Shown: positions 47,998-64,000 of the stretch, piece by piece | Layout: every line of letters starts with the position of its first letter | Numbering within the stretch: the stretch's first letter is position 1 | Assembly (NCBI GenBank): GCA_049968235.1 | Contig: JBMFRC010000001.1 | Location: forward strand, 64,001-128,000 | Origin: Candidatus Hydrogenedens sp. | Lineage (GTDB): Bacteria; Hydrogenedentota; Hydrogenedentia; Hydrogenedentales; Hydrogenedentaceae | DNA: 64,000 nt | Reading direction: 5' to 3' | Position numbers and translations under genes: made by a program | The notes under the pieces: model-generated | What the model was told of the DNA's origin: nothing | Databases searched by the model: none | The model's input: the letters and a program-made list of their open reading frames with translations, nothing else

Positions 47998-50900
47998 TCA
48001 TTCTCGCTGGAACATTTTTATTCTTTGCTCTTCTTTGGGTTGAGAAGGTGCAGTAATAGATCTTTCACTACTTCCTGCAGGAGGATATATTGTTACTGTA
48101 ACTTTTGCAGGAGTAGTATCCGCTACTAACGCTCCTGTTGTCGTATCCTGAACAAAGGCACGAACTACAAAATCATATTTCACTTCTCGTTTTCTAAATC
48201 CACCTTCAGGAGAGCCTTCATCTCCCAATCGGTCATTAAATACACCTGAACCACACTGAGTCGGTGGTAAATTTAAAAATTCAGGAGTTGATGTATACCA
48301 ATTTAAGTTGAATCGAGTACTTGCCTCATTGGGAGATAAGAAATCGGATGGGATACAAATCTCTGCAGTAGTATCTCCATATAACATCGATGCTGTTCCG
48401 CCTGCTACTAAATTAGAATCCTCAAATATTTGTATATCAAACCCTATTCTTCCAGAAACAAATCCTTCTGAAGGCAGGATACAAGACATATTTAATTTTA
48501 CTTCAATACGATAATCACAGGCATTTTCTAATGCAGGCAAAGGAACTCTTCGTGAGGAGCCAAATTCTCTTTCTCCAAAGTTATAATTTATAAATCTCCA
48601 TGTAGTTGGGTCAGCGGTAGAACGGTTCCACCAGGAGTTTATATCTAATTTAGTATCAATATCGAATTCACAGGGGTTACGCCAGATACAGAATGGGACA
48701 TTGTTCCCCGTTATTGTGCCTAATGAGTTAAATCTATTTCCGAACAAAATATTTGGGATTGGTTGGACATTTCCAGCTTCATCTGCACCAATAATTGTTG
48801 CCATTAAGAGGGCGCCACAATACCGTTTATCACTCAGAATATCATTAAGTGTTGTGATTGAGCCATCAGCGAACACTATTGGGGTATTCTTATCCATACT
48901 TTCACGATTAATAATCCAACCCCATCGACCTACAAATCTATCTACAGCCTCCCAGATAGAAGTTTCATAATTGAATGGGTCTATCGCAGACCATATACGA
49001 ATACCAAAAATAGGAAGGCAGGGGTCAGAATTTACAGGTTTATCCGATACACTTCTTGTCAACTTCCATTGTATATGTGGGTCCTTGTCCCACGCACCTA
49101 TCCGTGGAGCGGAGATAATTTCTATGACAGGGTCTCTCATCCACCATAATTCGAGAGCATCCTGTTGAGCAGGATTTTCTACCACTAAATTGCCCGACAA
49201 ATCTTTAACTAAAAACTTCATACGAATATGCCAATCCAAACCGAAACCAAGATTGAACCATCTCCATTTAACTAACGCAGACTGCCATGGTTGTGTATAT
49301 TCTGTTTGAGATGGGTCTGTTGTAGCAAAATATTCAACACCTGGATTCGATGTGTATGAAAGAACCCGACCTATATCGTTTAATGGAGCAATAAACGCAC
49401 ATCCCAGTCCTCTAAAAGGTTCAAGTCCTGTATATACAGGTCCATTTGTGAGTAAATCTATTATTGGCGTAACAGTAGTTGTAGATACATTGGACCTATT
49501 TGTAATAAATCCAGCAACTTCGACAATCCTCGGCGAGCCATTATATTCTGGATATGGGTCAGAGTAACCTGCTTGCAATATATATTCAAGAGGTGATTGA
49601 GGTAGATTATTGAAAAACATTTGTGCTGTCGGTGAAGTTTGATTACTTATTGTCCCATAAGAATATGCCAGAGGATTAAGAACTGCAGGACCCCAATTGG
49701 GTGGATAACTAAATTGAGATGGTGGAGAGATAACATCATTATTTTGTATAACGAATCCTACTGCAGTAGCATCATACAAATCATTTCTTAAACGCGGTGG
49801 GACCGTATCAATTACGAATTCTGTATCTTCTAAATAAAAGTTTATTCTATATTCTTGATTGGTTCCAATACCCATCAAAGTTTGATTTACTCGTAAATAA
49901 ATTCTCGCTCTACCATTTGTTGTGGATAGCACTCCATCTGTATCTGTTACAAATAATGAATCCATTGTGAACACACTTCTTCCTCTTTGACGAGTAGTAT
50001 CTATCGGGACAACCACTTGTTTTAATTCTGTTGGAAGTTTATTTAATTGTGATAACGGATTAGGATTATTTTTAACCAGAGGGACATATTCTTCGGGTAC
50101 GAGGTATAAGGTAGCATCATCAAGAGTTTCTCCCTGAATTCCTACTTCTACGGTAAATTCATTTCCGATACCTATATCTCTTTCCCTACCAGTAGCGCTA
50201 CGAGGAACTGTAGGACTTACATTACAATAACTCCACAAAAGTTCTGCACCTCCAATAATTACTTCATCGGCACTTACTTGAATGTTACGGATATCCCGAA
50301 CTTCATTTTCAAAGTCCGTATAAGGGGAGGGACTGGCACAACTTGTGAGACTTAAATAGGGTATAAATATATTTGGGACATAATTCAGAACTGCTTCGAG
50401 AGAGACCCGTGACGGGATAGGAGTTATCAATTTTCCTATCCATGGGCTATCATAGAAATGAACGGAAAGAGGGTCTATCGTTATAGGCGTTCCTACTTCT
50501 GTAACGCCCGTAATGATTGGAGGATACACAAGATTCCACCCACTTATTAGACTGGCTCCTGGCTCACATACCAATCCACCACCGGTGTTGTTCCAGACTA
50601 AGGTTGCCATAACATAGGTGCTTCCCGTTCCTTTGCTTTCAACACCTATACCTCCATTAGAATAAATTGTGCTTTGTACTATTGCAGTGGTTCCATTATT
50701 CAATACACCATCGTTCAAACTCCCATAGATAACCGTTTGTAAAATGGAAGCCTTTCCATCTGGCATAACCACAACGCCATCATCAAGTTTAGGACCTATA
50801 AAAGAACGACTCACTTTACTCATTCCTTGTATATTTAGGATACCAGCACTACCCTGGGTAAGGGAAAGGTTCTCAATGCATAAATTACCATTGAGGTGAA

Positions 50901-53900
50901 CTTCTATCAATGGGAATTTATCTCTTGCAATTGCAATATCATCGACCATAAATATAGATTGGTCAAGAAACCTACAATTTTCGTAAACGAAATACAGAGT
51001 ATGGGGATTCGGTAATACTAATAACAATGGGATTTCCTGCAGAGACCAATCTCCTTCTTCAATACTTCCGGCATCCTTAACCCATACAGGTGTTCCCGTT
51101 GTGTCATCCCAGTAAACTTTTAACTTCGTTTGCTCGGGCGAAGTTCCTTTTTCAACACGGACATAAAATTGGAGTTTTGTTGCACTGGGAGGAATGTTTA
51201 TCCCTGTTTGCCATAGCATACGTTTATCGAGTTTTGGACTCTTTAATTGAGCATACCACACACCGGTGTGAGCATCAATAAAACCTGTTGGACCGCCCTG
51301 AATTATCTGGCTTTTATCGGGAGTAGCATCCCATGGTGTTGCTAATCCGGATTCAAATCCGGGGTCTAACAGTATGTTATCCAAACACACTATTGGAATA
51401 GCAGGCATAAGTATTTCATAACCTAAACATACATCATCAATAAGAAAACGCACAGGAGTTTTATCACACTCTGTCATTGCCACTCGAATTGTAAGACTAT
51501 GCGGTTGCATATCCAAGTAGGGTAATAATTCATTATCTACCATTACCAATGTATAGTTATTCCAGTAGAAAGTATCATTGGCTCTTATTTTCTTTATGAC
51601 ATGGTCATCCACTAAAATTTCTAATTCTGTGTTTGATGTACTGGTTGCATCAAGGATTTTTAACCAAAAACTCAATACAGGTAATGGATTAACAGCACCA
51701 AATCGTAAGGCTCGTGTTCCTGTTATAGGGGGTTCTGGCAGAATGCAATCAACAGGATATGCTTTGTCATAACAATGAATAGGTCCCATAAGTAAAGCGG
51801 TAGCATTTTTGTTCCATGCGGAATCGGGATTCGTTTCAAATGAAGGATTCTGCACTGCATTATCAGGACATACCCCAAATGGGTCTATCAGGACTCCTAA
51901 TTCACCATAAGGGCTTACGCAGAAATCATCAAATAGAATAGATGAGCCTGGATTTAATGAAAAGATTCTTGCTTTTATATGAATTGAAAAACTACTAATA
52001 CTCTCTTCCAGTAACGGAGGAACTAACCATCTCTCTATTTTTGTCCAGACTCCATCTACTGGCATCCCTGAAACCCGAGAGTCATAAACAATTTTCGTTA
52101 CTATGTTCTCATCATCATCTAACCATACCTTAAAGAAATCTTGACTTCCGTCTACATTTACAGGTTTAACTTGAAAGGAAATCTTTGCTGGAGGAACTCC
52201 TCCCAATTCTGCACAGAAAGGAGCCTTATTTCCGCCTGTGGGTTTAATTATAGTTGCGATAGTTCTTTCGGGTATAGGAGGGTTGGTAACTAATACCCAG
52301 GACTCATCATTTCCTGCTTCAAAATTTCCATTGGGAACACTAATGCCATTCTCAGGCAACCTTAAATTCATTAAAGGACCCACAAGAAAACGGACATCAT
52401 CTATATCAAAAGTGGTCGTATTAAAATCAACACTATCGGGTGTAAGAGCACAGGGAGAAACGGTGCTTTCAATATGAAAAGTATGTTTCGCATTATCATT
52501 TGTTAAAGGTGATGGTATTTTAACTAAAATACGGGTGTATTCTCCGGCGTTTGGAATTAAATCGGGTCTATATTCAGGGATAGGTATCCAGTTACCAGGG
52601 CTAATCTCCGCAAATATCTCTGAAGCCATTAACATACTATCAAAATAAAACCTTAATATATCTGTTGTTTTTCCACTGAATATTTTTATTTTTATGAACA
52701 TCTCTACCCAGACTTCCCTCGGGGATATAGGAGAAGGACCTAAAATAAGGCATCTATCAGGAGGGAGACCCAACGGGTCATTTCCAATAGACCAATTCCC
52801 TTCGCCTGACCAGCCGATACATCCAACATCATCAAAGCTACCACAGACAATTGGAATTTCGGCAGTACTCATTCCCATATCTAAAAATATACGGAAATCA
52901 TCCAGATAAACAGTATTTTCACCTATACCCAATTTTGAAATCCGAAGCACAACGATAGGTACATCTAATGGATTATACTGTTGAATTAATGAAGTAACAT
53001 CGATATTCCATGTTATCCAATTCATTGGATTGGGTATTGCGGACAAAGGAATGGTATAAGTAGTAGATTCGTTCAACATTTCAATATATATTTCGACTTT
53101 ATCTCCGGAATCCACAGGGTCCGCACTACGCATAATTTCAAATTTCAGTTGTGCGGAAACAAGGTTCGGAAGGTCAATAGGCAATTGAGCAGAAAGAGAA
53201 AGGGTATTCTCCATATAGGAGATACCTGTTGGTTCTGTGCCTTTAGGGAAATCTATAGGTTGTGTCTGAAGTATATCTATAGCAGAGAGAACCTTAGGAA
53301 AAGTAATATCTTGCCAGACTTCCGGATAACCTGCTATGAGATAGGGGTCTCCTGATAAAGGGTCTTCTGTGAACTGGAAATTTTGATATATCTGGTCAGG
53401 TTCAAAGGGTTCATTTATTCCCTTAAACGAGGCTAAATGTGTGGGACTTAAAGCAAGAGTATTTTCCTCAATAATAGAGTAGGCCGGGTCATCCGGGTCT
53501 GGTGGGTCTACAAGTATATTCCAATCTGTCGAAGGAGATAGTTCAAAATTACTATTTTTTATAACTCCTTTGAATATATTATTTCCCATGATAATGACAT
53601 CCGTAGGTAAGATAGCAGAAGAAGGAGTTGTAGGGTTAGGAACACCTTTAAGCGTAATATCGCGATTGATGATAATCGGTTGTTTAATTTCATAAATGGT
53701 AGGAGTAGTAGTATCTGCCTCAATATGAAAAGTAGTTTCTAATGGGTTATTTAAAATAATATCAATGATATTATCTCCGGGATGTATAATAGTCTCTGCT
53801 TTTATACTTGAATGTAATGTTATGAATAGCAGTAGGAAAAATAAAGGGATATTTTTTGATAACTTCTCATTTACAGAATCCGTTTTATAACCCCTTTTTC

Positions 53901-63803: not shown

Positions 63804-64000
63804 ATTTCTATCTTTATCCTGCCTGTTACCCGAAACAGATTCAACAAACTCATTTTATGCGTTACCCACAAACTATCCCCAGGGATTTGTCCTTGAATGT
63901 TTTCAGGGAGAATCATAGGTTCTGAGTTAGTCGTATCTACTAATGCAAGAATATATCGTTCTTTTATCATCGTATTAGAAGTGGGAAGAAGTTTTCCATC
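63800..64000 (-). CDS. 3' end (C-terminal 66 aa) of an upstream gene, possibly another pseudopilin; N-terminus lies beyond window end
   Basis: An open frame runs from the window end to TGA at 63802-63800 (...FRVTGRIKIEI*). The stop overlaps the next gene's start as ATATGA. It is absent from the ORF track because it has no Met or start in the window. Confidence 0.35.
   Translation of the reverse strand, partial: DGKLLPTSNTMIKERYILALVDTTNSEPMILPENIQGQIPGDSLWVTHKMSLLNLFRVTGRIKIEI

What the first reader, a model, noticed from the sequence alone, without database searches (positions are those of the whole stretch)
47998..64000. Minor-pseudopilin operon in which the K/X-like member and its partner are giant (2536 aa and 1973 aa) proteins
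Reading the minus strand from 64000 downward gives the following order. First comes a partial upstream ORF. Next is a 141-aa prepilin (G/FSILE). Next is an enlarged ~590-aa prepilin (G/MTLIE). Next is a 2536-aa protein whose first ~50 residues look like a GspK/PilX-type pseudopilin, with a hydrophobic helix and no Glu5. Last is a 1973-aa signal-peptide protein that starts 3 nt later with a strong SD. This mirrors gspH-I-J-K and fimU-pilV-W-X-Y1 operons. In those operons I-J-K (or V-W-X) form the filament tip and PilY1 is the tip adhesin. Here the K/X-like subunit and the PilY1-position protein together exceed 4500 aa. The operon sits next to a co-directional pilMNOPQ block. Together they form a ~24.6 kb minus-strand island. 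The arrangement suggests a type IV filament carrying a giant tip or adhesin complex. I do not recognise it as a described system. Giant genes near pilus loci have been noted in some ultra-small/episymbiotic lineages. That would fit the low GC here.
Basis: partly seen in the sequence, partly recalled or inferred. Interest (0 to 1): 0.85.

Follow-up and report, generated by a model that had tools for sequence, protein, structure and literature searches.

The report
Giant GspK-like tip pilin operon
In the uncultured phylum Hydrogenedentota, a type IV pilus gene cluster has a GspK/PilK-type tip subunit grown to 2,000-3,400 residues, followed by a second huge PilY1-like partner protein, which suggests a pilus tip far larger than any described.

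Summary

The window comes from a Candidatus Hydrogenedens (Hydrogenedentota) chromosome. It is cut inside a larger cluster.

In 32 of 33 long related loci the gene order is identical: PilB, PilT, PilB, PilC, G (~290 aa), H (~295 aa), I (~140 aa), J (360-625 aa), K (2,005-3,339 aa), Y (992-2,464 aa), a PEGA/FGE lipoprotein, a PilM-N fusion, two small genes, and the secretin.

**The 2,536-aa protein (K)**
- It sits in the K slot.
- Its N-terminus matches GspK, PilX_N and Verru_Chthon-A profiles in every family member tested.
- GspK-like motifs are scattered along its length. When the inserts are removed they align to up to 2-284 of the 307 GspK profile positions.
- I read it as a GspK/PilK-class minor pilin split by about 2,100 aa of insertions.

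**The 1,973-aa protein (Y)**
- It has a signal peptide, a variable N-terminal part and a conserved C-terminal module.
- It carries a conserved 11-12-residue tail at the extreme C-terminus ((D/E)EQP(I/V)K.(F/Y).RE). This is the logic of the PilC/PilY1 "plug".
- No PilY1 beta-propeller was detected.

Structure predictions were too weak to confirm either fold. Tip location is inferred, not shown. I found no description of this system in the literature I searched.

Verdict: a new variant of a known kind.

The parts
63800..64000 (-). C-terminal end of the H-position prepilin (~294 aa in relatives); cut by the window edge
   Evidence: The translation matches the C-termini of L009 4939-5823 and L006 6856-7743. 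Those proteins start with ...QGYTLTELLVV and hit TIGR02532.
63378..63803 (-). I-position minor pilin (141 aa; leader ...NKELG / FSILEIVIALAII, Glu5 present)
   Evidence: weak hits to N_methyl, PilV, XpsI and GspI. Orthologues are 34-46% identical at the same position in distant loci.
61640..63427 (-). J-position minor pilin, enlarged (595 aa; ...YRTG / MTLIELVVAMAIL, Glu5 present)
   Evidence: N_methyl and TIGR02532 hits are above cutoff. Weak N-terminal hits to Verru_Chthon cassette protein C, HpsC and GspJ. Orthologues of 360-625 aa occupy the same slot.
53923..61533 (-). K-position giant (2536 aa): GspK/PilK-class minor pilin homologue with very large insertions
61330..61533 (-). K residues 1-68: short basic leader, Gly7, hydrophobic alpha-1 without Glu5
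   Evidence: GspK profile positions 2-65. AlphaFold helix 7-68. G7/A9/L20/F27 are invariant across the family.
59659..61233 (-). K residues ~101-625: insertion 1. Beta-rich domain(s) with DxDxDG and DG.DNN.NG..DE calcium-type motifs.
59584..59634 (-). K residues 634-650, GRMAVYIEDESKKVNLN: counterpart of the GspK 'DxxxxFNLN' strand region
   Evidence: G634, R635, D642 and N650 are invariant. It matches Verru_Chthon_A positions 232-254. It joins the GspK alignment (profile 2-104) once insertion 1 is removed.
57217..57426 (-). K residues 1370-1439: lamin-tail-domain-like (LTD) Ig-like module
   Evidence: Pfam LTD E 1.5e-6, below the gathering score. Found in 12 of 14 family members.
53944..54597 (-). 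K residues 2313-2530: C-terminal GspK-like part (KINVNT helix-hairpin-helix-type motif, GR.E..DGRYY, RSDVF.I.A.VQ, ...R.VYER)
   Evidence: Conserved blocks. In the insert-deleted P0030 core, this part extends the GspK match to profile position 284 of 307.
47998..53919 (-). Y-position giant (1973 aa): secreted protein, PilY1-like in position and architecture
48001..50223 (-). Y residues 1233-1973: C-terminal module, the only part conserved across the phylum
   Evidence: BLASTP to the Y proteins of L004, L001 and L002 aligns only in this region. Alignment A6 shows the motifs D.AGN, DPL..WW and GADEAGNVQ. No Pfam or PDB relative.
48001..48036 (-). Y residues 1962-1973, KEEQRIKMFQRE: conserved extreme C-terminal tail, a candidate beta-strand 'plug'
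   Evidence: 25 of 32 Y proteins match the motif, 21 of them starting exactly 11 residues from the end (range 9-13). About 0.003 matches per protein are expected by chance. AlphaFold gives low confidence for the last 45 residues, as reported for the PilC tail.
46525..47922 (-). Lipoprotein (LVLSC lipobox) with PEGA repeats and an FGE-sulfatase-like domain; a conserved member of the cluster
   Evidence: Pfam FGE-sulfatase 1.9e-53 and PEGA 1.1e-30. Present between Y and PilM in most loci.
44180..46270 (-). PilM-PilN fusion (GspL-like architecture; Amuc_1101 family-like)
   Evidence: PilM_2 5e-47; TIGR01175 scores 174 against a cutoff of 133; Amuc_1101_fam 4e-82, below its cutoff.
43212..44183 (-). 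PilO-position protein (323 aa, N-terminal TM helix)
   Evidence: No family hit. Conserved in position.
42690..43202 (-). PilP-position protein (170 aa)
   Evidence: No family hit. Conserved in position.
39420..42677 (-). Secretin (1085 aa) with TPR and long Gly/Tyr-rich and Pro/Gly-rich low-complexity inserts
   Evidence: Pfam Secretin 1.8e-35. GspD, PilQ and Amuc_1098 hits are all below their cutoffs.

Best explanation
This is the distal half of a chromosomal type IV filament (T4aP-like) gene cluster. The cluster is conserved across the phylum Hydrogenedentota.

**Shown**
- The genes for G, H, I, J and K pilins are followed by a large secreted protein (Y), a lipoprotein, a PilM-N fusion, two small proteins and a secretin.
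- In relatives the cluster is preceded by PilB, a true PilT-family ATPase, a second PilB carrying a c-di-GMP-binding MshE-type motif, and PilC.
- The 2536-aa protein is the homologue of the GspK/PilK(PilX)-class minor pilin. It has the Glu5-less class III type N-terminal helix. The characteristic GspK sequence blocks are present but split by three or more large insertions totalling about 2,100 residues. The insertions hold beta-rich domains, an LTD-like Ig module and many Asp-rich calcium-type loops.

**Inferred**
- As in T2SS and T4aP, I, J and K would form the initiation complex that caps the filament.
- Both ends of K belong to the pilin core. Its insertions would therefore project from the pilus tip as a very large (~250 kDa) calcium-stiffened module.
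- The 1973-aa protein is made from a translationally coupled ORF and exported by Sec.
- It would dock onto the K/J interface through its conserved 11-12-residue C-terminal tail by beta-strand addition, as shown for PilC/PilY1.
- Its fast-evolving N-terminal part, including a beta-helix, would be presented as the adhesin or enzyme.
- PilT would make the filament retractile, so that the cell pulls on whatever the tip binds, such as particles, polymers or other cells.
For: **Organism and family**
- The 1973-aa protein is 100% identical to an NCBI Candidatus Hydrogenedens sp. protein. K homologues are named Hydrogenedens or Hydrogenedentes.
- 74 loci in species-representative genomes carry the family, almost all titled Hydrogenedentota.
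- phmmer of K residues 560-1200 against 1.84 billion cluster representatives finds only 111 hits. Most are 2,000-3,400 aa; the rest, about a fifth, are shorter and were not checked for truncation.

**Synteny**
- Gene order is identical in 32 of 33 loci of at least 22 kb.

**Machinery in the 83%-identical relative L006**
- PilT family: 461.8 bits against a cutoff of 319.
- GspF/PilC: 427 bits against a cutoff of 424.
- PilB/GspE: ~595 bits.
- MshE-type c-di-GMP motif: 62 bits against a cutoff of 38.

**K as a GspK homologue**
- N-terminal GspK hits in 14 of 14 members, Verru_Chthon_A in 10 of 14, PilX_N in 2.
- Deleting the inserts raises the GspK score. The window protein goes from 15.8 to 26.4 bits. 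The P0012 core reaches E 2.8e-14. P0030 goes from 35 to 60 bits (E 2.5e-16) and covers profile positions 2-284 of 307.
- The short relative P0044 (693 aa) has the DEAAKVNLN block directly after the helix.
- hhalign of the core against E. coli GspK aligns 80 N-terminal residues (P 6e-5).
- AlphaFold gives a helix at residues 7-68.

**Y as a PilY1 analogue**
- Signal peptides, a variable N-terminus and a conserved C-terminus.
- It is the least conserved protein of the cluster: 69% identity against 81-90% for its neighbours.
- Conserved tail in 25 of 32 proteins, 21 of them at exactly the same distance from the end.
- A 3-nt K-Y spacing with a Shine-Dalgarno sequence inside K.
- Published mechanism for the tail: PMC13533445 and bioRxiv 10.64898/2026.09.18.752573.
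Against: - **No native family member reaches a curated family cutoff.** GspK needs 130 bits and Verru_Chthon_A needs 332. Native matches cover only the N-terminal helix and one motif.
- **The insert-deleted 'core' is partly circular.** I chose its segments by eye for GspK-like motifs, so part of the score gain is by construction.
- **Y has no PilY1 propeller.** No signal by HMM in 20 sequences or by PDB profile search. Its model is unusable (pLDDT 51.5) and shows only Ig-like matches.
- **K may not need a strand from Y.** K keeps C-terminal strands (...VYER) that may complete its sheet in cis, as in T2SS GspK.
- **The prepilin peptidase gene is not in the window**.
- **There are no expression, localisation or imaging data.**
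- **It is unknown whether a ~280-kDa tip subunit can pass the secretin.**
Confidence: 0.7

Rival explanations
1. The system is a type II secretion-like machine with a short periplasmic pseudopilus, not an extended pilus. The giant K caps the piston in the periplasm. The 1973-aa protein is simply a secreted substrate, such as a beta-helix enzyme or adhesin, and is not part of the tip.
For: - The contiguous G-H-I-J-K order, the fused PilM-N (GspL-like) protein and the GspF hit at cutoff are T2SS-like.
- K keeps GspK-like C-terminal strands that could complete the sheet in cis, as in T2SS.
- NCBI names Y homologues as beta-helix proteins.
Against: - A PilT/PilU-family retraction ATPase well above cutoff sits inside the cluster in 30 of 33 long loci. 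T2SSs lack it.
- The G pilin is ~290 aa, twice the size of GspG.
- Y has a conserved extreme C-terminal tail at a fixed distance from the end, and its ORF is translationally coupled to K. That fits a stoichiometric partner better than a substrate.
- A ~280-kDa cap is hard to fit in a periplasm.
Confidence: 0.15
2. The 2536-aa protein is only a membrane-anchored surface or periplasmic protein. Its N-terminal helix resembles pseudopilins because any hydrophobic anchor does. It is not polymerised into a filament.
For: - Native HMM hits are weak and confined to the N-terminal 60-80 residues.
- No structural confirmation.
- One paralogue (L038) lies outside any pilus cluster.
Against: - The hits are specifically to GspK, PilX_N and Verru_Chthon_A, the Glu5-less class, in 14 of 14 members.
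- GspK-type blocks beyond the helix are invariant. They align to the GspK profile in order when the inserts are removed.
- The protein occupies the K slot after the I and J homologues in 32 of 33 loci.
Confidence: 0.07
3. The conserved tail of the 1973-aa protein is a sorting or anchoring signal for another partner, for example recognition by the adjacent PEGA/FGE lipoprotein or by the secretin. It is not a beta-strand plug for K.
For: - The tail is charged and polar ((D/E)EQP(I/V)K.(F/Y).RE).
- No PilY1 propeller is present.
- The lipoprotein gene directly follows Y in most loci.
- K may already be complete in cis.
Against: - The tail shares three traits with the PilC/PilY1 plug: its position at the very end after a variable linker, its ~12-residue length, and low model confidence when modelled alone.
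- MshQ, another protein lacking the PilY1 signature, is predicted to use the same mechanism.
Confidence: 0.2

Closest known systems
T2SS GspK (XcpX) and T4aP PilK/PilX minor pilins in the GspI-J-K / PilV-W-X tip complex
   Same: - Glu5-less class III type N-terminus.
- Gene position after the I and J homologues.
- GspK-type sequence blocks in the same order (DxxxxxNLN, ..D.RD.D.., INVNT, C-terminal strands).
- Presumed cap and initiation role.
   Different: - 2,000-3,400 aa against ~300 aa.
- About 85% of the protein is insertions with no detectable relatives.
- Native sequences do not reach the family cutoffs.
- The fold is not confirmed.
CpaL/TadG of Tad pili (~600 aa) and Thermus ComZ (554 aa): minor pilins with a large domain inserted in the pilin fold
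   Same: The architecture. An N-terminal pilin part and a C-terminal strand return to the core, and a large middle region loops out at the tip (PMC13533445; PMC6561018, listed).
   Different: The insert is about four to five times larger and has several domains. The filament class differs (T4aP-like with secretin and PilT). No sequence relationship was detected.
Verru_Chthon cassette proteins A-D (TIGR02600/02598/02599/02596), an uncharacterised four-gene pseudopilin cassette of Verrucomicrobia
   Same: - Three prepilin-type proteins plus one large protein (profile 1,296 positions). The large protein's N-terminus and DE..K.NLN block match K.
- The J protein weakly matches cassette protein C, and the L006 G protein weakly matches protein D.
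   Different: - Scores are far below the cutoff (at most 38 bits against 332).
- K is about twice as long.
- Here the genes are embedded in a complete pilus machinery cluster.
PilC/PilY1 tip adhesins (and MshQ)
   Same: - Large and Sec-exported.
- Encoded directly after the K-class pilin.
- Variable N-terminus and conserved C-terminus.
- A short conserved extreme C-terminal tail.
   Different: - No IPR008707/PF05567 beta-propeller detectable.
- The C-terminal module looks like Ig-type beta-sandwiches.
- Up to 2,464 aa.
T2SS-like loci next to giant genes in Omnitrophota (bioRxiv 10.1101/2023.11.21.568195)
   Same: Very large proteins encoded beside a type IV filament-type machinery with class III signal-peptide genes. 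An adhesion or predation role is proposed.
   Different: Those giants are over 25 kb, contain many transmembrane segments and SecA-like domains, and are not pilins. Here the giant is itself the K-class pilin.

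Membership tests
GspK / PilK(PilX)-class minor pilin | Class III type N-terminus: short leader ending in Gly, ~20 hydrophobic residues, no Glu at +5 | tested here: met
   The sequence is MRKPETG/AALVLAIGIIAILLAIGF. GspK profile positions 2-65 matched in 14 of 14 members. PilX_N scored 27-30.6 bits against a cutoff of 25.5 on two members. AlphaFold helix at residues 7-68.
GspK / PilK(PilX)-class minor pilin | Gene placed directly after the I- and J-class minor pilin genes | tested here: met
   32 of 33 long loci.
GspK / PilK(PilX)-class minor pilin | Whole-protein match to the family model (NF037980 cutoff 130 bits; Pfam T2SSK) | tested here: not met
   Native proteins score 12.6-35 bits. 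Insert-deleted cores score 26-60 bits, covering up to profile 2-284 of 307. No Pfam T2SSK hit.
GspK / PilK(PilX)-class minor pilin | Pilin fold (alpha-1 packed on a beta-sheet) with an inserted alpha-domain | tested here: inconclusive
GspK / PilK(PilX)-class minor pilin | Processing by the prepilin peptidase and incorporation at the filament tip | not testable with these tools
   No prepilin peptidase gene in the window. The rest of the genome was not searched.
Verru_Chthon cassette protein A (TIGR02600) | Score at or above 332.3 bits over the 1,296-position model | tested here: not met
   Best score ~38 bits. Only positions 1-72 and 232-254 aligned.
PilC/PilY1 tip adhesin | [quoted passage not shown] | tested here: met
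   Signal peptides were judged by eye; no predictor was run.
PilC/PilY1 tip adhesin | C-terminal beta-propeller domain (IPR008707 / PF05567) | tested here: not met
PilC/PilY1 tip adhesin | Short (~10-12 aa) extreme C-terminal peptide that adds a beta-strand to the K-class pilin | tested here: inconclusive
   A conserved tail exists in 25 of 32 proteins, 21 of them at a fixed offset of 11 residues, against ~0.003 per protein expected by chance. Binding to K could not be modelled or tested.
Type IVa pilus machinery | PilB, PilT, PilC, PilM, PilQ-type secretin and a major pilin in one system | tested here: met
   - In the window: PilM_2 and TIGR01175 above cutoff, and Pfam Secretin above gathering.
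- In relatives upstream: PilT above cutoff, a PilB-like ATPase (~595 bits, below both the PilB and GspE cutoffs), PilC/GspF, and a GFTLVELL pilin.
- PilN, PilO and PilP are assigned by position or architecture only.
Type II secretion system | GspC-M set without a retraction ATPase | tested here: not met
   A PilT-family gene lies inside the cluster. No GspC or GspM hits. GspE and GspD scores are below cutoff. GspF is just at cutoff.

The most novel reading that the evidence does not exclude
Hydrogenedentota build a retractile type IV pilus whose cap is a ~0.5-MDa two-protein organelle.

- The first protein is a GspK-class pilin whose two ends form the pilin core. About 2,100 residues of calcium-stiffened domains loop out from the tip.
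- The second is a 1,000-2,500-aa partner held on by a C-terminal plug strand.

This would be by far the largest pilin known. It would be a grappling device for particles, polymers or other cells, and an extreme natural test of the beta-strand-addition model and of what can pass through a secretin.
Probability: 0.4. Interest if true: 0.8.

Novelty: new variant of a known kind. Interest (0 to 1): 0.62.

Why it matters
**For pilus biology**
- Minor pilins of the GspK/PilK class are ~300-aa caps that start filament assembly.
- Larger 'modular' pilins reach about 600 aa. An uncharacterised verrucomicrobial relative reaches about 1,300 aa.
- A version of 2,000-3,400 aa, conserved across a whole phylum and always paired with a second giant, would stretch three ideas:
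  - how much cargo a pilus tip can carry;
  - how such a tip passes the secretin;
  - how the recently described PilY1 'plug' mechanism generalises to proteins that have no PilY1 propeller.

**For the organism**
- It gives a concrete, testable surface structure for an uncultured, globally distributed phylum.
- The main text of the two phylum-focused papers I checked does not mention pili.

Tried and rejected
- **Exact look-up of the 2536-aa protein:** not on record.
- **PDB sequence searches with three family profiles** (whole K, K core, Y C-terminal module): nothing meaningful.
- **afdb50 fold library:** unavailable.
- **Third word-index homology search with the K core profile:** found only one fragment and one short relative, P0044.
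- **hhalign of the core against a single E. coli GspK:** aligned only the N-terminal 80 residues.
- **Literature searches:** nothing on this system for Hydrogenedentes/Hydrogenedentota plus pili, Verru_Chthon cassette, or giant plus GspK.
- **Rejected: an ultra-small or episymbiont origin.** The taxonomy is Hydrogenedentota, with chromosomes up to 7.9 Mb.
- **Rejected: a mobile island.** GC is flat at ~0.35-0.45 across the window, and the neighbours are housekeeping genes: KdtA, ParAB, SerRS, TyrRS and RecO.

Full report
**1. Observation**

- a partial ORF ending at 63800;
- a 141-aa ORF (63378-63803);
- a 595-aa ORF (61640-63427);
- a 2536-aa ORF (53923-61533);
- a 1973-aa ORF (47998-53919).

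Downstream of these lie:
- a 696-aa PilM-type protein;
- two small ORFs of 323 and 170 aa;
- a 1085-aa secretin (39420-42677).

The N-termini read as reported...ELG/FSILE for the 141-aa protein...RTG/MTLIE for the 595-aa protein, and MRKPETG/AALVLAIGIIAILLAIGF with no Glu5 for the giant. The giant's stop and the next ATG are 3 nt apart, with GAGGAGG inside the last codons.

Pfam and NCBIfam results:
- The prepilin motif is above cutoff in the 595-aa protein. It is weaker in the 141-aa protein.
- The 696-aa protein hits PilM_2 and FtsA.
- The 1085-aa protein hits Secretin.
- The 465-aa lipoprotein hits PEGA and FGE-sulfatase.
- The 323- and 170-aa proteins hit nothing.

**2. Source and extent**

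The 1973-aa protein is 100% identical to a Candidatus Hydrogenedens sp. MAG protein. The giant's homologues are named Hydrogenedens or Hydrogenedentes.

A scan of one genome per species found 74 loci with a relative of the giant. Almost all are titled Hydrogenedentota, including Ca. Hydrogenedens terephthalaticus at 88% identity. A number are titled 'uncultured Nitrospirales', which are probably labelling artefacts.

The rest of the window holds housekeeping genes: ParAB, SerRS, TyrRS, RecO, KdtA and sugar ABC transporters. GC is even across it. This is an ordinary chromosomal region, not an island, and not an episymbiont genome.

**3. Synteny**

Called genes on three distant contigs and my own ORF/BLASTP survey of 33 loci of at least 22 kb give one invariant order in 32 of them:

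PilB, PilT, PilB, PilC, G (248-360 aa), H (270-429 aa), I (126-210 aa), J (360-625 aa), K (2,005-3,339 aa), Y (992-2,464 aa), PEGA/FGE lipoprotein, PilM-N, ~330 aa, ~168 aa, secretin.

- The window is therefore cut inside the H gene. The partial ORF matches the H C-terminus of relatives.
- In the 83%-identical locus L006, the upstream genes score as a PilT-family ATPase (461.8 bits, cutoff 319), PilB/GspE (~595 bits) with an MshE-type c-di-GMP-binding motif, and GspF/PilC (427 bits, cutoff 424). The G protein begins GFTLVELLVV.
- The one exception, L038, is a 2,929-aa paralogue sitting among unrelated genes.

**4. The 2536-aa protein**

*Family.* About 30 word-index hits and 111 cluster representatives among 1.84 billion. 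Complete members are consistently 2,000-3,400 aa. Conservation runs along the whole length.

*N-terminus.*
- Every one of 14 members scanned hits the N-terminal 60-80 positions of NCBIfam T2SS_GspK (best E 1e-8).
- Ten hit Verru_Chthon cassette protein A (best E 1.7e-9).
- Two hit Pfam PilX_N.
- All these hits are far below the whole-protein cutoffs.

*GspK-like blocks further along.* By eye, the family's invariant blocks mirror E. coli GspK, fetched from K-12:

| Giant residues | Giant family block | E. coli GspK counterpart |
|---|---|---|
| 634-650 | GR.A..I.DE..K.NLN | WQLRDAQHCFNLN |
| ~963-983 | QLAVN..D.RD.D | SIADYIDVDD |
| 2343-2350 | KINVNT, followed by R.E..DGRYY.S..EL | SINLNM...QKRPREGWLTTDAFL |
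| 2480-2526 | RSDVF.I.A.VQ...R.VYER | SRYFTLSTES...QIYRR |

*Test of the blocks.* I cut out the stretches between these blocks (keeping residues 1-100, 626-720, 958-990, 2313-2375, 2408-2445 and 2465-2530) and rescanned.
- The window protein's GspK score rose from 15.8 to 26.4 bits. The alignment now ran through the NLN block (profile 2-104).
- The P0012 core reached E 2.8e-14.
- P0030 rose from 35 to 60 bits (E 2.5e-16), covering profile positions 2-284 of 307.
- Because I picked the segments, this is supportive, not independent, evidence.

*A natural control.* P0044, a 693-aa relative, has VEDEAAKVNLN about 100 residues after the helix start, as GspK does. So residues ~100-625 of the giant are an insertion.

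*Structure.* AlphaFold on residues 1-1200 (28-row alignment) gave mean pLDDT 60.
- One 62-residue helix (7-68) and a confident beta-rich domain (~120-230 and 370-640).
- Low confidence for residues 640-850.
- The pilin fold is therefore not confirmed, and the insert domain has no solved relative.

*Other features.* An LTD-like module (residues 1370-1439; found in 12 of 14 members) and at least seven Asp-rich calcium-type loops.

**5. The 1973-aa protein**

- Close homologues exist only within Hydrogenedens (53% identity or more).
- It is the least conserved protein of the cluster: 69% identity against 81-90% for its neighbours in L006.
- Against the Y proteins of distant loci, only the C-terminal ~400-740 residues align. 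Total length ranges from 992 to 2,464 aa.
- Most Y proteins begin with a signal-peptide-like segment.
- 25 of 32 Y proteins match a tail motif starting 9-13 residues from the C-terminus, and 21 of them start at exactly 11. The consensus is (D/E)(E/D)QP(I/V)K.(F/Y).RE, which reads KEEQRIKMFQRE in the window. It follows a variable linker. About 0.003 matches per protein are expected by chance.
- No PilY1 propeller or any other family was detected: not in the window protein, not in 19 diverse C-terminal modules, and not by profile against PDB sequences.
- The AlphaFold model is poor (pLDDT 51.5; the last 45 residues are low) and matches only Ig-like sandwiches.

**6. Mechanism**

Two 2026 studies show that PilC/PilY1 is held on the pilus tip, and licenses assembly, through its last ~10-12 residues.
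- Those residues add a beta-strand to the PilK-class pilin at the PilJ interface.
- T2SS GspK and the ~600-aa CpaL supply that strand in cis.
- MshQ, which lacks the PilY1 signature, is predicted to do the same in trans.
- Sources: PMC13533445 and bioRxiv 10.64898/2026.09.18.752573.

The Hydrogenedentota pair fits this scheme.
- It has a K-class pilin in the right slot.
- It has a coupled downstream giant with a signal peptide, a variable head, a conserved base and a conserved terminal tail.

I therefore propose three things. I-J-K cap a PilT-retractable filament. K's insertions project from the tip. Y is plugged onto K/J by its tail.

Open points:
- K also keeps a conserved ...R.VYER end that may already complete its sheet in cis. 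Whether Y's tail is needed is unresolved.
- Whether such a large cap can pass the secretin is unknown. The secretin here is itself enlarged.

**7. Comparison and novelty**

The closest known things are:
- GspK/PilK (same class; about one tenth the size);
- CpaL/TadG and ComZ (same 'insert in a pilin' architecture; about 600 aa);
- the uncharacterised Verru_Chthon cassette (pseudopilins plus a ~1,300-aa protein A; weak N-terminal similarity only);
- PilY1 and MshQ (for Y);
- the T2SS-like loci beside the non-pilin giants of Omnitrophota.

Searches of PMC and bioRxiv found no description of this system. The main text of two phylum-focused papers does not mention pili.

I file it as a new variant of a known kind: a type IV filament tip complex with a giant K-class pilin and a PilY1-like but non-homologous partner.

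Noticed in passing
window 39420-42677 (-): The 1085-aa secretin has two long low-complexity inserts before its Secretin_N/Secretin domains, plus a TPR near the N-terminus. One insert is Pro/Gly/Gln-rich (aa ~330-410). The other is a ~150-aa Gly/Tyr/Met-rich run (GGYGGGMYGGG..., aa ~500-640). This is unusual for PilQ/GspD.
   Followed up: no
window 46525-47922 (-): A lipoprotein with three PEGA domains and an FGE-sulfatase (SUMF1-like) domain sits between Y and PilM in most loci. The same superfamily supplies the T9SS ring proteins GldJ/GldK/PorK (from my own knowledge). It may therefore be a structural part of the machine.
   Followed up: partly
window 44180-46270 (-): PilM and a PilN-like transmembrane/coiled-coil part are fused in one 696-aa protein with a long Pro/Gly/Gln-rich tail. 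The architecture is GspL-like, and the best named relative is the Akkermansia Amuc_1101 family. The secretin likewise resembles Amuc_1098.
   Followed up: no
L038 9947-18736: One Hydrogenedens MAG has a 2,929-aa paralogue of the giant with the same GspK-like N-terminus. It sits among APS kinase, a sugar ABC ATPase and a rhamnosidase, not in a pilus cluster.
   Followed up: partly
L013, L014, L026, L028 and other loci: Many species-representative MAGs carrying this otherwise Hydrogenedentota-only locus are titled 'uncultured Nitrospirales/Nitrospiraceae', and one 'FCB group'. These are probably mislabelled bins.
   Followed up: no
L013 17617-23518: The Y gene of this locus is split into two ORFs (1212 + 782 aa). 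This is either a frameshift or assembly error, or a pseudogene.
   Followed up: no
window 18383-23284 (-): A 1633-aa protein with PKD domains and a full PhoPQ-activated pathogenicity-related domain (E 8e-100). It is another large secreted protein in the same window.
   Followed up: no
P0044 (693 aa): A short relative with a GspK-like N-terminus, the VEDEAAKVNLN block, the DG.DNN.NG..DE motif and QLAVNTVDYRD. It appears to end where an LTD-like segment begins. It may be a mid-sized member that links GspK to the giants, or a truncated gene call.
   Followed up: partly
window 2154-3689 (+) and 8936-11230 (-): Two sizeable ORFs (511 and 764 aa) have no Pfam hit at E <= 1e-5.
   Followed up: no
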